A stretch of 32,000 nt of DNA from Desulfocapsa sulfexigens DSM 10523 (GCF_000341395.1 NC_020304.1:2670001-2702000); one strand, 5' to 3'. Shown: positions 26,231 through 29,292, numbered from the stretch's first letter. Made by a program: numbers and translations. The notes: generated from the sequence alone by a model not told the origin.

Positions 26231-27196
26231 ATGGATAGTCAAAATAAAAATAGAACCGAAATATACAGGAAGGATCGTAGTGCTGAAAATCTTTTTGAAA
26301 TAATGAATAAAGCACTTATTTCAACGGAGAAGGAGTTTATAGAAGGATTTGACGTCCCGATTCATCCTGTTATTTTTATCGTCGGAGCCCAAAGGTCTGG
26401 GACAACTCTTTTGATGCAATTAATGACCCAATATTTTGCCCTCTCGTACCCGAATAATTTTATAGCAAGGTACTGGGATGTCCCTTTTGTTGGGGCGATG
26501 CTTTATAAAAGCTTATCTAAAGACATTGTTGTAGAAAAGCCCAATTTAAATTCTGATCTGGGATATACGCAGGGGATTGAAGGGCCCCACGAGTTTGGGT
26601 ATTTTTGGAGGAAATGGCTTCCATGGGAGAGTTGGGAAGAAAAGAATGACAGTCAGATGGATTATACGGTCTTTAAGAAACAGTTGGCCGCATGGGAGAG
26701 TATAAATAATACACCAATAATATTCAAAAATTTAATACAGGTTGATTTTAACATTCTGACAATTAAAGAAATATTACCAAATGCAGTTTTCATATTTCTA
26801 GAAAGAGATCTTGTATACAATGTACAGTCTACCTACCAATCAAGACTGAGACTATTTGGAGATGATAGAGAGTGGTTTGGAGTAAAACCTCCGCGGTTTC
26901 ATGAATATCAGAAACTACCCGTACTGGAGCAGATTGCTTGTCAAATAATTGATACAAATCATGCAATACGAGAGCAATTAGATAAGGGGGGTGATTGTGA
27001 CGCTGTGACGGTTAGTTACGAAAATTTAATTTTAAATCCTAAGGCAGAACTTGATAGAATAGGGAAAAAACTCCACTTAGAATTAAAGGATAATGTTGAT
27101 TGTTTTGAGGCAGAAGTTACATCAGGAAATAGTGTGAAAGTGGATAGAGCAATATTTGAAAAGATAGAAAAAATATGTAAAAAGATGAAACGTTAA
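26231..27196 (+). CDS. sulfotransferase-family-like protein
   Basis: VIFIVGAQRSGTTLL resembles the 5'-PSB (PAPS 5'-phosphosulfate binding) loop. FIFLERDLVYNVQS resembles the RDP.D...S 3'-PB region. The size (approx 320 aa) fits bacterial Sulfotransfer-type proteins. Motif-level evidence only. The start is ATG 26231 or GTG 26225. Confidence 0.5.
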   Translation: MDSQNKNRTEIYRKDRSAENLFEIMNKALISTEKEFIEGFDVPIHPVIFIVGAQRSGTTLLMQLMTQYFALSYPNNFIARYWDVPFVGAMLYKSLSKDIVVEKPNLNSDLGYTQGIEGPHEFGYFWRKWLPWESWEEKNDSQMDYTVFKKQLAAWESINNTPIIFKNLIQVDFNILTIKEILPNAVFIFLERDLVYNVQSTYQSRLRLFGDDREWFGVKPPRFHEYQKLPVLEQIACQIIDTNHAIREQLDKGGDCDAVTVSYENLILNPKAELDRIGKKLHLELKDNVDCFEAEVTSGNSVKVDRAIFEKIEKICKKMKR

Positions 27197-27197
27197 G

Positions 27198-28148
27198 ATG
27201 GAAACAGTTATTGAGAATAGAGCGTCATTTGTTCTGTATAATGTGATACTTTCAAATATGTTACATAAAGGTATTATGTTACTTCCTGCAAATATTTGTC
27301 CTATCGTTCCTGCTACTTTATTCAAAACAAATACTAAGTTCGAATTTGTAGATATTAATGCTGAGACCCTGTTGGTTGACTGTGATTCAATTATCAGAAG
27401 AATTAGGAACTCAGGTGATGTGGCGTCAATATTGGTTAACAGTACCTTTGGGTTTGACAGTGATTTCGAAACATTCTTCAATGATGTCAAATCAATAAAC
27501 GAAGATATCTTAATTATAAATGATAAATGTTTGAATATTCCTAGTGTGGAATCTGTGGTTACGAGTGCTGATGTCGTTTTATTTAGCACAGGGTATTCAA
27601 AATATGTTGATTTTTCCGTGGGAGGGTACGCTTTTACTAAAAAAGAGGTGAATTATATTAGAGAAAGTATCCCCTATAGAGAAGAAGATCATGATGTTTT
27701 AGTAAGGTCATTTGAAAGTGCTTTAAACAAAAATTCTGTATATGGTTACTCAGATTCAGACTGGTTGGATGGAACATTTTTAGATCAGGGTAAAAAAGAA
27801 TATTTTAAGAATATTGTTGATCGAGTAGAGGAAATAGCCAGGCACAAAAAGATAATTAATAATATTTACAGAGAGAACCTAAAAACAGGAATTTCTCTGG
27901 GAAATGGATATAATGATTGGCGATATACTGTTGTAGTAAATAATAAAGAGGAAGTTTTGAATGAAATATTTAAAAATAATTTATTTGCTAGTTCTCATTA
28001 CCAATCATTAGTCGGAATTTTCGGGGGGGGCAAGGGAGTGAATGCAGAACAGTTGCATTGCAAGGTGATCAACCTTTTTAATGACTTCCGATTTTCTGAA
28101 GAACAGGCCTATTCTATCACAAAAATTATTAACAAATATGCGAAATAG
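27198..28148 (+). CDS. short, divergent DegT/DnrJ/EryC1-like (fold type I PLP) protein, function unknown
   Basis: It aligns by eye with PseC in this same window: LLPANICPIVPATLFKTNTKFEFVDIN vs [25 protein letters not shown]; IINDKCLN vs IIEDACHA; VVLFSTGYSKYVDFSVGGYAF vs [21 protein letters not shown] (Lys conserved). It lacks about 60 N-terminal residues relative to PseC. Confidence 0.45.
   Translation: METVIENRASFVLYNVILSNMLHKGIMLLPANICPIVPATLFKTNTKFEFVDINAETLLVDCDSIIRRIRNSGDVASILVNSTFGFDSDFETFFNDVKSINEDILIINDKCLNIPSVESVVTSADVVLFSTGYSKYVDFSVGGYAFTKKEVNYIRESIPYREEDHDVLVRSFESALNKNSVYGYSDSDWLDGTFLDQGKKEYFKNIVDRVEEIARHKKIINNIYRENLKTGISLGNGYNDWRYTVVVNNKEEVLNEIFKNNLFASSHYQSLVGIFGGGKGVNAEQLHCKVINLFNDFRFSEEQAYSITKIINKYAK
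28023..28030 (+). repeat. G8 homopolymer inside the DegT-like CDS (codons GGG GGG GGC = GGG)
   Basis: Read directly at 28023-28030, in a region of roughly 30-35% GC by spot count. Loss of one G gives TGA at 28039-28041. Gain of one G gives TAA about 50 nt downstream. Confidence 0.9.
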
Positions 28149-29292
28149 TCAAAAAAAAATAATGATCCTTGGTGCAGGTCAAATGCAGGTTCCTGTAATC
28201 AAAAAATGTAGTGATTTAAATATATTCACAATAGCAGTTGATTTTGATGAATATGCACCAGGATTTAAATATTCCGATAAAGGTCTTATTCTATCAACGC
28301 ATGACAAAGAAGAAATACTTAAACAGGCTAAAAAGAATAAGATTGATGGGATTTTGACGACTTCAGATTATCCTGTTAATAGTGTTGCATTTGTTTCGAA
28401 TCAATTGGGGCTCAGTGGTTTGAGTCAGGATGTTGCCACATTATCAACAAATAAGTTTTTATTGAGGGAAAAACTGAAAGAATGCAAACTGAATTGCCCC
28501 AAATATATAATCGCCTGTGACAATTCTGAACTTACTCAAGTTGATTTCTTTCCGGCCATCATCAAACCCATTGATTCTTCGGCAAGTCGTGGTGTTAAAA
28601 AAGTTAACACACCCGAAGAGCTTTATGAACAATTTGCAATCTCCAGAGAATTTTCAGTCAGTCAAAAAGTTATTGTAGAAGAATTCATCCATGGCAGAGA
28701 GTATAGTGTTGAAGCAATATCTCAGGGTGGCAAACATTACATAATATCAATAACAGGCAAGACAATAGTTGGTGAAGAGGATGGGTTTTTTGTTGAATTG
28801 GCTCATCAAATTCCTGCTAATCTTAGCGAAGAAGAAATAGAATTAGTCCATACTGAAACACTAGCTGCCTTAAATGCTATTGGGCTAGATGATTCAGCTT
28901 CTCATGCAGAAATTATTTTATCTGGAAAAAAAGCATATATAGTTGAAGTGGGTGCCAGGCTGGGAGGGGATTTTATTGGTTCAGATCTTGTTCCTCTCTC
29001 GTGCGGCGTGGATATGTTAGAAGATATCGTGAAGGTTTCGATTGGAGAAGAGATTAGTACTACAAAAGACAGGATGTGTTACTCGGGAATACACTTTATT
29101 ACCCCAGAAAATTATAAATCAGCAGCTGCGTTCATTCAAGAGAAGCAAGACATTATCGTGAAATATGAGATAAATAACTACCAAAACAAAAAAATTGAGA
29201 ATTCTTTGGACAGATTAGGATATATAATTGTAGTTACGGAGTCAAGAAAAGAACTAAATGATGCTTTTAGAAGCATAAATGATGATAATTAA
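28138..29292 (+). CDS. ATP-grasp family carboxylate-amine ligase
   Basis: KIMILGAGQMQVPVIKK (pre-ATP-grasp Rossmann-like domain), FPAIIKPIDSSASRGVKKV, VIVEEFIHGREYSVEAI and AYIVEVGARLGGD, the typical ATP-grasp B and C subdomain motifs. The ATG at 28138 overlaps the upstream stop by 11 nt; alternative starts are 28081 and 28162. Confidence 0.8.
   Translation: MRNSQKKIMILGAGQMQVPVIKKCSDLNIFTIAVDFDEYAPGFKYSDKGLILSTHDKEEILKQAKKNKIDGILTTSDYPVNSVAFVSNQLGLSGLSQDVATLSTNKFLLREKLKECKLNCPKYIIACDNSELTQVDFFPAIIKPIDSSASRGVKKVNTPEELYEQFAISREFSVSQKVIVEEFIHGREYSVEAISQGGKHYIISITGKTIVGEEDGFFVELAHQIPANLSEEEIELVHTETLAALNAIGLDDSASHAEIILSGKKAYIVEVGARLGGDFIGSDLVPLSCGVDMLEDIVKVSIGEEISTTKDRMCYSGIHFITPENYKSAAAFIQEKQDIIVKYEINNYQNKKIENSLDRLGYIIVVTESRKELNDAFRSINDDN

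What the first reader, a model, noticed from the sequence alone, without database searches (positions are those of the whole stretch)
26231..29292. The PseH slot of the pseudaminic-acid operon is occupied by a sulfotransferase-like / truncated DegT-like / ATP-grasp trio
The canonical CMP-pseudaminic acid pathway uses six enzymes: PseB, PseC, PseH (a GNAT N-acetyltransferase), PseG, PseI and PseF. In compact loci the order is often pseB-C-F-G-H-I. Here pseB, pseC, pseF, pseG and pseI are all recognisable, but I find no GNAT-sized (approx 150-190 aa) acetyltransferase ORF in the window. Between pseG and pseI sit three genes of other families: 26231-27196 sulfotransferase-like, 27198-28148 DegT-like, and 28138-29292 ATP-grasp. 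They are packed with a 1-nt gap, an 11-nt overlap, and a 14-nt overlap into pseI, so they are probably co-translated with pseI. An ATP-grasp ligase could attach a carboxylic or amino acid to the 4-amino group of the PseC product in place of acetyl. The PLP-fold protein could make or modify that acyl donor, and the sulfotransferase-like protein could decorate it further. That would produce a Pse derivative with a non-acetyl N7 substituent, made by an enzyme set I do not recognise as a described pathway.
Basis: partly seen in the sequence, partly recalled or inferred. Interest (0 to 1): 0.8.

Follow-up and report, generated by a model that had tools for sequence, protein, structure and literature searches.

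The report
Ligase cassette replaces PseH acetyltransferase
In this bacterium's operon for the sialic-acid-like surface sugar pseudaminic acid, the usual acetyl-adding enzyme is missing and an ATP-driven ligase with two helper enzymes sits in its place, a widespread but uncharacterised arrangement (also in human gut bacteria) that probably makes an unusual, possibly sulfated, form of the sugar.

Summary
In this Desulfocapsa sulfexigens window, pseB, pseC, pseF, pseG and pseI are all present. No PseH/GNAT is encoded anywhere in the 32 kb. Three tightly coupled genes sit between pseG and pseI:
- a sulfotransferase-fold protein (ST) with intact PAPS-binding motifs;
- a 316-aa short DegT-fold protein (sDegT) that keeps the catalytic Lys and Asp;
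- an ATP-grasp ligase closest to L-amino-acid ligases.

The comparative data add to this. The ATP-grasp is the constant element. It lies next to pseI in 72 of 75 metagenomic loci, in Bacteroidota (Odoribacter, Flavobacterium, Marinifilum), a Chlorobi MAG and others. It is almost mutually exclusive with PseH: a GNAT is present in 8 of 8 control pse loci but in only 4 of 24 dereplicated ATP-grasp locus types. One locus fuses PseG to the ATP-grasp, mirroring the canonical PseG–PseH fusions.

sDegT and ST are swappable accessories. sDegT carries poly-G tracts with frameshifted alleles, which suggests phase variation.

Best reading (inferred, not shown): the ligase acylates the PseC amine in place of PseH, and sDegT and ST then edit the appended group. 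I found no publication describing this. Whether a pseH lies elsewhere in the genome could not be tested.

The parts
22026..23033 (+). pseB, UDP-GlcNAc 4,6-dehydratase (inverting)
   Evidence: TIGR03589 scores 545 bits against a cutoff of 408.
23030..24187 (+). pseC, the full-length DegT aminotransferase that makes the 4-amino group (later N7 of Pse)
   Evidence: TIGR03588 scores 565 bits against a cutoff of 424.
24390..25121 (+). pseF, CMP-pseudaminic acid synthetase
   Evidence: TIGR03584 scores 275 bits against a cutoff of 206.
25087..26121 (+). pseG-like UDP-sugar hydrolase, 344 aa, with no fused GNAT domain
   Evidence: TIGR03590 scores 135.8 bits, below the 153.55 cutoff. A sub-cutoff score is not diagnostic: the PseG part of a canonical PseG-GNAT fusion scores 151.6. 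Canonical fusions are 486-514 aa.
26231..27196 (+). ST-like, a sulfotransferase-fold protein of 321 aa (UWK_02418)
   Evidence: PF13469 at 3e-22. The AF2 model has pLDDT 90. Foldseek hits are all PAPS sulfotransferases (Stf9, Stf1, TPST, CurM-ST). The family keeps an invariant G52-x-x-R55-S56-G57 (T58 and T59 nearly invariant) and invariant R192 and S200.
27198..28148 (+). sDegT, a short DegT-fold PLP-type protein of 316 aa (UWK_02419)
   Evidence: No Pfam or NCBIfam hit. The AF2 model has pLDDT 95.7. The best PDB folds are DegT sugar aminotransferases and ColD, TM about 0.7. Invariant D109 and K135 align with the PLP Asp and Lys of PseC. At least 505 homologs of about 315 aa exist.
28023..28030 (+). 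G8 homopolymer inside sDegT (codons for Gly276-278). It is the only G or C run of 7 or more in the window and is in frame here.
   Evidence: G8 tracts also occur in sDegT of two other lineages, with G7 and G6 frameshifted alleles.
28138..29292 (+). ATP-grasp ligase, 384 aa, of L-amino-acid-ligase type. It is the conserved core of the cassette.
   Evidence: PF13535 and PF02655. The family profile against PDB gives 4DIM 8e-48, LAL BL00235 3e-42 and BacD 1e-21. Invariant K143, E258, E270, R274 and G276-G277. It lies adjacent to pseI in 72 of 75 loci.
29279..30331 (+). pseI, pseudaminic acid synthase, overlapping the ATP-grasp gene by 14 nt
   Evidence: TIGR03586 scores 467 bits against a cutoff of 340.

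Best explanation
The three genes form a pseudaminic-acid tailoring cassette. Its core, the ATP-grasp ligase, is a non-orthologous replacement for PseH.

Proposed steps:
1. PseB and PseC make UDP-4-amino-4,6-dideoxy-beta-L-AltNAc, as in the canonical pathway. This follows from established knowledge of the pathway.
2. Instead of acetyl-CoA-dependent N-acetylation, the ligase activates a carboxylic acid as an acyl-phosphate and couples it to the 4-amino group. By homology to L-amino-acid ligases the acid is most likely an amino acid. This step is inferred.
3. PseG, PseI and PseF carry the product through to a CMP-Pse bearing a non-acetyl N7 substituent. This is inferred.
4. sDegT, a PLP enzyme with its catalytic Lys and Asp intact, then edits the dangling amino-acid moiety by transamination or decarboxylation. 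This is inferred.
5. The PAPS-type sulfotransferase sulfates that moiety on a hydroxyl or on its free amine. This is inferred.

Other lineages keep the same ligase but swap the editing enzymes: none, sDegT alone, an LbH or GNAT acetyltransferase, an SDR, or a methyltransferase. That makes the cassette a modular generator of Pse surface diversity.
For: 1. The window has pseB, C, F, G and I but no GNAT.

2. The same ST–sDegT–ATP-grasp order between pseG and pseI occurs in unrelated contigs, including a Chlorobi MAG.

3. The ATP-grasp is adjacent to pseI in 72 of 75 metagenome loci. It also lies in the slot between pseG and pseI, or beside pseG, in Odoribacter splanchnicus, Flavobacterium bizetiae, Marinifilum breve and Aureibacter tunicatorum.

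4. Anticorrelation with PseH. All 8 informative control pse loci without the ligase have a PseH-like GNAT between pseG and pseI or fused to PseG. Only 5 of 58 ligase loci do, or 4 of 24 clusters at 80% identity. Fisher p = 4.7e-5.

5. L113 encodes a 706-aa PseG–ATP-grasp fusion, the exact analogue of the canonical PseG–GNAT fusions.

6. The ligase is closest to amide-forming L-amino-acid ligases, and its ATP-grasp catalytic residues are invariant.

7. The gene overlaps of 11 and 14 nt imply co-translation with pseI.

8. sDegT is dispensable and probably phase-variable. G8, G7 and G6 alleles and a 412-bp deletion allele all sit beside an intact ligase. That fits a terminal editing role.

9. Outside pse loci, ST-like relatives sit beside amine-generating enzymes (DegT, PIG-L) and amine-acylating enzymes (Acetyltransf_6/FemAB, WbqC, Hexapep). 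This ties the family to amino-sugar N-tailoring.

10. The literature lists glutamyl, glyceroyl, lactoyl and similar N-acyl groups on bacterial nonulosonic acids. It states that the genes for the N7-glyceroyl group on Pse are unknown.
Against: - There is no biochemical or glycan-structure evidence for any organism carrying the cassette.
- A PseH-like GNAT (best hit TIGR03585, 58-95 bits) co-occurs with the ligase in 4 of 24 locus types. LbH acetyltransferases occur in about 8 of 24. The ligase could therefore be an add-on in at least some lineages.
- A pseH elsewhere in the D. sulfexigens genome could not be looked for. The LbH domain of the 8384-9973 fusion also cannot be excluded as the N4-acetyltransferase.
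- PseI scores as a normal PseI, so nothing in PseG or PseI signals an altered substrate.
- The control set is small (8 loci) and comes from plasmid/chromid records.
- Many metagenome loci are near-duplicates, although I dereplicated them.
- The roles assigned to sDegT and ST are inference only.
- PAPS supply in this organism was not examined.
Confidence: 0.5

Rival explanations
1. Add-on tailoring. N4-acetylation is done by an acetyltransferase encoded elsewhere: a distant pseH, or the LbH domain of the 8384-9973 fusion. The cassette decorates finished Pse or CMP-Pse at another position, for example an O-linked aminoacyl ester (like the O8 N-acetylglutamine reported on Campylobacter Pse, recalled from memory) and/or an O-sulfate.
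For: PseH-like GNATs co-occur with the ligase in L051, L095, L097, L098 and L114. F. bizetiae has a NeuD/PglD-type LbH beside the ligase and a PseG that scores above cutoff. ATP-grasp enzymes can form esters as well as amides (established knowledge, e.g. D-Ala-D-lactate ligases, which appear among the hits). PseI and PseG look canonical.
Against: It does not explain why 20 of 24 ligase locus types lack the GNAT that 8 of 8 control loci carry in that very slot. It does not explain the PseG–ligase fusion. It requires an unlinked pseH in many unrelated lineages.
Confidence: 0.25
2. Amine-donor plus amidoligase logic, as in C. jejuni Cj1436/Cj1437/Cj1438. sDegT makes a small amine such as an amino-alcohol. 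The ATP-grasp activates a sugar carboxylate (C1 of Pse, or a uronic acid of the polymer) and amidates it. ST supplies or replaces the phosphate handle with sulfate.
For: The precedent is characterised. DegT-family PLP enzymes make serinol-P and ethanolamine-P, an ATP-dependent amidoligase couples them to GlcA, and a phosphatase finishes the product. In Anaerolineales loci sDegT sits beside WbqC near glycerol kinase, glycerol-3-P dehydrogenase and a His_Phos_1 phosphatase, a DHAP-to-serinol-like context.
Against: Many loci have the ligase with no sDegT. sDegT is frequently frameshifted or deleted next to an intact ligase, so it cannot be the obligatory substrate supplier. A C1-amidated Pse would probably not be activated by PseF (inference). 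The idea does not explain the loss of PseH. The ligase profile matches L-amino-acid ligases.
Confidence: 0.12
3. Direct N-sulfation. The sulfotransferase itself caps the PseC amine, giving a sulfamate in place of the acetamide. The ATP-grasp and sDegT do something else.
For: ST-like directly follows pseG in the window, L001, L003, L009 and L010. Distant relatives neighbour the amine-producing DegT and PIG-L N-deacetylases, which recalls the N-deacetylase/N-sulfotransferase logic of heparan sulfate biosynthesis.
Against: ST is present in only 3-4 of 24 ligase locus types, whereas PseH is missing from 20. ST therefore cannot be the general PseH substitute. It is always accompanied by a ligase-position gene (ATP-grasp or WbqC). 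N-sulfated bacterial nonulosonic acids are unknown to me.
Confidence: 0.06

Closest known systems
Canonical CMP-pseudaminic acid pathway (PseB, PseC, PseH, PseG, PseI, PseF), with locus order pseB-C-F-G-H-I or a PseG–PseH fusion
   Same: Five of the six enzymes are present in the canonical order. The cassette sits exactly where pseH lies in the control loci (A. baumannii, S. fredii, Bacillus, Priestia, Peribacillus) or where the GNAT is fused to PseG (P. distasonis, Klebsiella, Pseudosulfitobacter).
   Different: There is no GNAT PseH. In its place are an ATP-dependent ligase, a PLP-fold protein and a sulfotransferase-fold protein. The acyl group is presumably activated by ATP rather than carried on CoA.
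L-amino-acid ligases of the ATP-grasp superfamily (B. licheniformis BL00235, BacD/YwfE), and the uncharacterised structural-genomics protein 4DIM
   Same: These are the best sequence-profile matches: 4DIM 8e-48, BL00235 3e-42, BacD 1e-21. The length, three-domain layout and invariant ATP-grasp residues are the same.
   Different: The genomic context is a nucleotide-sugar or nonulosonic-acid operon, not a dipeptide antibiotic cluster. The predicted amine acceptor is an amino sugar, not an amino acid. No equivalog model is met; the best NCBIfam scores are far below cutoff.
C. jejuni HS:2 capsule amidation system: Cj1436/Cj1437 (DegT-family PLP enzymes), the Cj1438 C-terminal ATP-dependent amidoligase and the Cj1435 phosphatase
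   Same: A DegT-fold PLP enzyme is teamed with an ATP-dependent amide-forming ligase inside a surface-glycan locus.
   Different: In that system the sugar provides the carboxylate and the PLP enzymes make the amine. Here the sugar most likely provides the amine. sDegT is a distinct 316-aa subfamily about 50 residues shorter at the N-terminus. A sulfotransferase is present instead of a phosphatase.
PAPS-dependent sulfotransferases of the Sulfotransfer_3 type (mycobacterial Stf1/Stf9, TPST, CurM ST domain)
   Same: The fold and both PAPS-binding motifs match.
   Different: Identity is only 13-18% and TM 0.4-0.55. The acceptor is unknown. The link to a nonulosonic-acid operon has not been described in anything I could search.
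Phase-variable poly-G flagellin-glycan modification genes of Campylobacter (e.g. Cj1295). This comparison rests on memory; only a general phasome paper surfaced.
   Same: A homopolymeric G tract lies inside a Pse-modifying gene, and frameshifted alleles occur in natural populations.
   Different: The protein family is different (DegT-fold) and so are the phyla (gut Bacteroidales-like contigs, Desulfocapsa). Switching has not been demonstrated.

Membership tests
CMP-pseudaminic acid biosynthesis locus | PseB, PseC, PseF and PseI score above their equivalog cutoffs | tested here: met
   TIGR03589 545 bits, TIGR03588 565, TIGR03584 275 and TIGR03586 467, all above cutoff.
CMP-pseudaminic acid biosynthesis locus | PseG UDP-sugar hydrolase | tested here: inconclusive
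   TIGR03590 is the best and only credible hit, but 135.8 is below the 153.55 cutoff. A canonical PseG-GNAT fusion also falls just below at 151.6, so the cutoff is strict.
CMP-pseudaminic acid biosynthesis locus | PseH, a GNAT N-acetyltransferase for the 4-amino group | tested here: not met
   No GNAT or TIGR03585 hit in any ORF of the window. The rest of the genome could not be tested.
DegT/DnrJ/EryC1/StrS aminotransferase family (for 27198-28148) | Match to the family profile PF01041 at the gathering threshold | tested here: not met
   No Pfam hit at E <= 0.01. A minority of homologs carry a precomputed PF01041 hit. The family profile against PDB gives weak DegT hits, 6e-07 to 1e-04.
DegT/DnrJ/EryC1/StrS aminotransferase family (for 27198-28148) | Fold-type I sugar-aminotransferase fold | tested here: met
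   AF2 pLDDT 95.7. The top 50 Foldseek PDB hits are all DegT-type enzymes, probability 1.00, TMq 0.63-0.73.
DegT/DnrJ/EryC1/StrS aminotransferase family (for 27198-28148) | Schiff-base Lys and pyridine-N Asp | tested here: met
   K135 and D109 are invariant in 44 homologs. In hhalign they align with the K of 'FSFHPVK' and the D of 'IIEDAC' in PseC.
DegT/DnrJ/EryC1/StrS aminotransferase family (for 27198-28148) | Full-length N-terminal segment (about 370-390 aa proteins) and activity on an NDP-keto-sugar | tested here: not met
   The protein is 316 aa and the whole family is 311-325 aa. The hhalign match starts at PseC residue 90. The substrate cannot be tested with these tools.
PAPS-dependent sulfotransferase (for 26231-27196) | Sulfotransferase fold and family profile | tested here: met
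   PF13469 scores 80 bits against a cutoff of 27. All significant Foldseek hits are sulfotransferases.
PAPS-dependent sulfotransferase (for 26231-27196) | 5'-phosphosulfate loop and 3'-phosphate Arg/Ser motif | tested here: met
   Invariant G52, R55, S56 and G57 (T58 and T59 nearly invariant), and invariant R192 and S200. Assigning these residues to the two motifs rests on my knowledge of the family.
PAPS-dependent sulfotransferase (for 26231-27196) | Sulfate transfer to a defined acceptor, and PAPS supply in the host | not testable with these tools
   No assay was possible. An APS kinase in the genome was not examined.
ATP-grasp / L-amino-acid ligase (for 28138-29292) | ATP-grasp domain profile and conserved ATP/Mg2+ and acyl-phosphate residues | tested here: met
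   PF13535 scores 69 bits and PF02655 56 bits. Invariant K143, E258, E270, R274 and G276-G277 in 37 homologs.
ATP-grasp / L-amino-acid ligase (for 28138-29292) | Membership of a characterised equivalog (BacD, DdaF, PurT, Ddl and others) | tested here: not met
   All NCBIfam hits are far below cutoff, e.g. DdaF 54 against 840, BacD 34 against 850 and PurT 46 against 502.
ATP-grasp / L-amino-acid ligase (for 28138-29292) | Amino acid as the acyl donor, and the amine acceptor | not testable with these tools
   This is inferred only from homology and context.

The most novel reading that the evidence does not exclude
The cassette makes the first sulfated bacterial nonulosonic acid. This would be a pseudaminic acid whose N7 carries an ATP-grasp-installed amino-acyl group that is PLP-edited and then O- or N-sulfated. 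More generally, the LAL-type ATP-grasp would be an unrecognised, widespread, CoA-independent alternative to PseH that underlies much of the unexplained N-acyl diversity of Pse, including in abundant human gut Bacteroidales, where a poly-G switch in sDegT toggles the epitope.
Probability: 0.25. Interest if true: 0.85.

Novelty: new variant of a known kind. Interest (0 to 1): 0.68.

Why it matters
Pseudaminic acids decorate flagella, capsules, O-antigens and S-layers, and their N-acyl groups determine antigenicity and recognition by phages and hosts.

The enzymes that install non-acetyl N7 groups are largely unknown. The Tannerella forsythia study says so explicitly for N7-glyceroyl. Mass-spectrometry surveys report many unexplained derivatives.

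This cassette gives a concrete, testable candidate: an ATP-dependent ligase that displaces PseH, plus modular editing enzymes. Close relatives occur in cultured, tractable organisms: Odoribacter splanchnicus, Flavobacterium bizetiae, Marinifilum breve, Aureibacter tunicatorum, Fulvivirga ulvae and Alteromonas halophila. They also occur in hundreds of human-gut contigs.

If the sulfotransferase acts on the sugar, this would be a new class of bacterial sialic-acid-like epitope. The ligase could also be useful for chemoenzymatic synthesis of Pse analogues.

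Tried and rejected
1. A sub-threshold PseG score as a marker of altered substrate. Rejected, because the PseG half of a canonical PseG–GNAT fusion also scores below cutoff (151.6) and the WbqC-type loci score above it.

2. WbqC as a remote ATP-grasp homolog. The hhalign probability is 0.2%, so there is no detectable relationship. It has no PDB relative and no NCBIfam name. Its equivalence to the ligase is positional only.

3. The hairpin in the 110-nt pseG–ST spacer as a regulatory element. It is not better than shuffled sequence (z = -0.52).

It did not recover Desulfocapsa or the close homologs, so there is no species-level census.

5. Plasmid and chromid searches with sDegT found nothing, and with ST-like found two distant hits.

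6. Literature searches on pseudaminic acid with ATP-grasp, sulfotransferase, WbqC, and aminoacyl Pse/Leg found no description of the cassette. The Iyer/Aravind amidoligase survey is not held.

7. The phmmer search of sDegT against PDB was empty. Only the family profile and fold searches placed it.

8. A pseH elsewhere in the genome could not be tested.

Full report
**Origin and layout**

The window comes from Desulfocapsa sulfexigens DSM 10523. The middle ORF is 100% identical to UWK_02419 and the sulfotransferase-like ORF to UWK_02418.

The window holds an ABC-transporter-type glycan locus:
- gmd/fcl at 6282-8313;
- a GFO-oxidoreductase/LbH-acetyltransferase fusion at 8384-9973;
- wzm/wzt at 10063-12159;
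- several glycosyltransferases;
- wecB at 20833-21933.

The pse block at 22026-30331 follows, and then an AT3-SGNH acyltransferase that runs off the end.

GC content falls from 0.42-0.45 in the upstream glycan genes to 0.32-0.37 across pseF to pseI. It is lowest in sDegT. This suggests that the pse block and its cassette arrived together.

**Checking the observation**

NCBIfam equivalog models identify PseB, PseC, PseF and PseI above their cutoffs. PseG is the only credible assignment for 25087-26121, but it scores below its cutoff.

The start codons at 26231 and 28138 agree with homolog lengths of 321 and 384 aa.

I found no GNAT in the window. Pfam and NCBIfam scans of all large ORFs were negative. 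A jackhmmer scan of every ORF of 60 aa or more, seeded with annotated PseH proteins, was also negative. The intergenic gaps in the pse block are at most about 200 nt.

**The three proteins**

*ST-like (26231-27196).* It matches Sulfotransfer_3. Its AlphaFold model (pLDDT 90) resembles only PAPS-dependent sulfotransferases: Stf9, Stf1, TPST and the CurM ST domain. Among 31 homologs the P-loop-like GxxRSGTT motif and an R...S pair are invariant or nearly so. From my knowledge of the family these are the 5'-phosphosulfate and 3'-phosphate binding motifs.

*sDegT (27198-28148).* It has no Pfam, NCBIfam or phmmer-PDB hit. It belongs to a large family of proteins of about 315 aa, with at least 505 hits. 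Its model (pLDDT 95.7) matches DegT-type sugar aminotransferases and the ColD dehydratase, at TM about 0.7 and 12-18% identity. The invariant D109 and K135 align with the PLP-anchoring Asp and the Schiff-base Lys of this window's PseC. It is therefore a DegT-fold enzyme shortened at the N-terminus and probably catalytically competent.

*ATP-grasp (28138-29292).* It is closest to the uncharacterised 4DIM and to the L-amino-acid ligases BL00235 and BacD. Its ATP-grasp residues are invariant across the family. It meets no characterised equivalog model.

**Comparative genomics: the ligase is the core**

The identical ST–sDegT–ATP-grasp order between pseG and pseI recurs in a Chlorobi MAG and in several marine or sediment metagenome contigs: L001, L003, L049 and L050.

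Relatives of the ligase at 41-59% identity are far more widespread. In 80 metagenome loci the ligase lies directly next to pseI in 72 of 75 cases. Cultured Bacteroidota show the following orders:
- Marinifilum breve: pseG, ATP-grasp, pseI;
- Odoribacter splanchnicus: pseG, sDegT, ATP-grasp, pseI;
- Flavobacterium bizetiae: pseG, LbH, ATP-grasp, pseI;
- Aureibacter tunicatorum: pseF, ATP-grasp, pseG, LbH, pseI.

I dereplicated the loci at 80% ligase identity, which left 24 informative locus types:

| Accessory genes with the ligase | Locus types |
|---|---|
| sDegT only | 5 |
| none | 5 |
| LbH only | 5 |
| GNAT only | 3 |
| ST + sDegT | 3 |
| ST + sDegT + LbH (the window; the LbH is the distant 8384-9973 fusion) | 1 |
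| sDegT + LbH | 1 |
| GNAT + LbH | 1 |

In Fulvivirga ulvae and in the Alteromonas halophila flagellin-glycosylation island, ST-like again directly follows pseG, but a WbqC protein takes the place of the ATP-grasp. WbqC shows no detectable homology to ATP-grasp.

**Does the ligase replace PseH?**

I built a control set of pse loci without the ligase, taken from annotated plasmid and chromid records. All 8 informative loci carry a PseH-like GNAT in the slot:
- as a separate gene between pseG and pseI in A. baumannii, S. fredii, B. thuringiensis, Priestia and Peribacillus;
- fused to the C-terminus of PseG in Parabacteroides distasonis, Klebsiella and Pseudosulfitobacter.

Among the ligase loci only 5 of 58 have such a GNAT, or 4 of 24 dereplicated types. 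Fisher p = 4.7e-5. One locus, L113, encodes a 706-aa PseG–ATP-grasp fusion, the mirror image of the PseG–PseH fusions.

Together with the amide-forming chemistry of the nearest characterised relatives, this is the basis for my main conclusion: the ligase is a non-orthologous substitute for PseH.

The exceptions are real. The co-occurring GNATs have PseH as their best match, at 58-95 bits. An add-on role for the ligase therefore cannot be excluded, at least in those lineages.

**Roles of the accessories (inferred)**

sDegT behaves as an optional editing enzyme. It is present or absent even among loci whose ligases share at least 80% identity.

In one human-gut lineage, contigs that are otherwise nearly identical carry G8 (intact), G7 or G6 (frameshifted) versions of a poly-G tract in sDegT. 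A second allele group has a 412-bp deletion. In all of them the ligase is intact.

G8 tracts occur in sDegT in three lineages, at two different glycine motifs. One is in this window, at 28023-28030, and it is the only G or C run of 7 or more in the 32 kb. This pattern fits a phase-variable terminal tailoring step. It argues against sDegT being the obligatory supplier of the ligase's substrate.

Outside pse loci, sDegT pairs with WbqC in a Paenibacillus dTDP-3-amino-sugar locus and in Anaerolineales loci.

Distant ST-like proteins are flanked by amine-generating enzymes (DegT, PIG-L) and amine-acylating enzymes (Acetyltransf_6/FemAB, WbqC, Hexapep). This ties the sulfotransferase family to amino-sugar N-substituents rather than to general polysaccharide sulfation.

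The picture I favour has two stages. The ligase appends an amino acid. The dangling amino-acid moiety is then capped or edited in a lineage-specific way: acetylated by LbH or GNAT, methylated, altered by PLP chemistry through sDegT, or sulfated by ST. None of these chemical steps is shown.

**Rivals**

- An unlinked PseH exists, and the cassette is an add-on decoration system.
- A Cj1436/1437/1438-like scheme operates, in which sDegT makes an amine and the ligase amidates a carboxylate. The precedent is confirmed.
- ST sulfates the PseC amine directly.

The first rival is the most serious one. The second is weakened by loci that have the ligase alone and by the dispensability of sDegT. The third is weakened by the rarity of ST among PseH-less loci.

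**Novelty**

Full-text searches found no paper linking pseudaminic acid loci with this ATP-grasp, with a sulfotransferase or with WbqC. Databases label the three proteins 'hypothetical', 'ATP-grasp domain-containing' or 'sulfotransferase'.

The T. forsythia study states that the genes for N7-glyceroyl Pse are unidentified and that knowledge of enzymes that modify nonulosonic acids is scarce.

I therefore rate this as a new variant of a known pathway. It is well supported as a conserved genetic module. Its chemistry is proposed but unproven.

Noticed in passing
window 28023-28030; L068/L079/L084/L086 (intact) versus L069, L074, L076, L080, L085, L128; L090-L093: sDegT carries G8 homopolymers in three lineages, at two different Gly motifs. 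In near-identical human-gut contigs the tract is G8, G7 or G6, giving frameshifted alleles. Another allele group (L070, L072, L073, L078) has a 412-bp deletion. This is probably phase variation of a Pse-tailoring gene, although assembly error at homopolymers is not excluded.
   Followed up: partly
window 28151-28159: An A9 tract lies in codons 5-7 of the ATP-grasp gene, just after its overlap with sDegT. It could be a slippage site. I did not compare it across homologs.
   Followed up: no
L009 10038-10763; L010 12292-13050; L004-L008; L011, L013, L014, L020, L022: WbqC (PF08889, function unknown, no PDB relative) recurs next to ST-like and/or sDegT. It occurs inside pse loci, where it takes the ATP-grasp's place, and outside them. 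It may be an unrecognised amino-sugar acylating enzyme. No homology to ATP-grasp was detectable.
   Followed up: partly
L005-L008 (Anaerolineales), about 650-13500: sDegT and WbqC sit with a glycerol facilitator, glycerol kinase, glycerol-3-P dehydrogenase, two GT2s, a His_Phos_1 phosphatase, an ApbA-like reductase and a PRK-family kinase. This context recalls the DHAP-to-serinol-phosphate chemistry of C. jejuni Cj1437.
   Followed up: no
L113 5100-7220; L119 8011-10125: Two natural fusions occur: PseG–ATP-grasp (706 aa) and extended-SDR–ATP-grasp (704 aa). Several loci (L112, L116, L121) insert an SDR plus an LbH between pseG and the ligase.
   Followed up: partly
window 8384-9973: A fusion of a GFO/IDH/MocA oxidoreductase (UDP-GlcNAc 3-dehydrogenase-like) with an LbH acetyltransferase looks like a WbpB+WbpD pair. 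The window has no dedicated WbpE-type aminotransferase; the only DegT-fold genes are pseC and sDegT.
   Followed up: no
window 3449-5137 and 5134-6183: An overlapping gene pair lies upstream of the glycan locus. It encodes an SMC_N/AAA_23 ATPase (562 aa) and a ThiI-like PP-loop protein with an NFACT-R_2 RNA-binding domain (349 aa). This may be a defence or RNA-modification module.
   Followed up: no
window 22000-32000 versus 1-12000: GC drops from about 0.44-0.50 to 0.31-0.37 across pseF to pseI and the downstream AT3 gene. sDegT is 0.32 and GC3 is 0.27-0.29 in the ATP-grasp and pseI. This is consistent with horizontal acquisition of the pse block with its cassette.
   Followed up: partly
L003 572-3079: The Chlorobi MAG locus also carries Antibiotic_NAT, MaoC-dehydratase and DUF4910/DUF2172 genes just upstream of pseB. 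From memory, this set resembles the Cj1295-Cj1298 Pse-modification genes of C. jejuni.
   Followed up: no
L136 (Acetoanaerobium noterae, NZ_CP154629.1): A Firmicutes pse locus has two ATP-grasp-like ORFs (317 and 332 aa), two PseC-like genes and no GNAT. This is a further, more divergent example of the PseH-less architecture.
   Followed up: no
L009 5959-7114: pseC of Fulvivirga ulvae is split into two ORFs (208 and 181 aa) in the deposited genome. This is a possible frameshift or pseudogene in an otherwise intact ST–WbqC pse locus.
   Followed up: no
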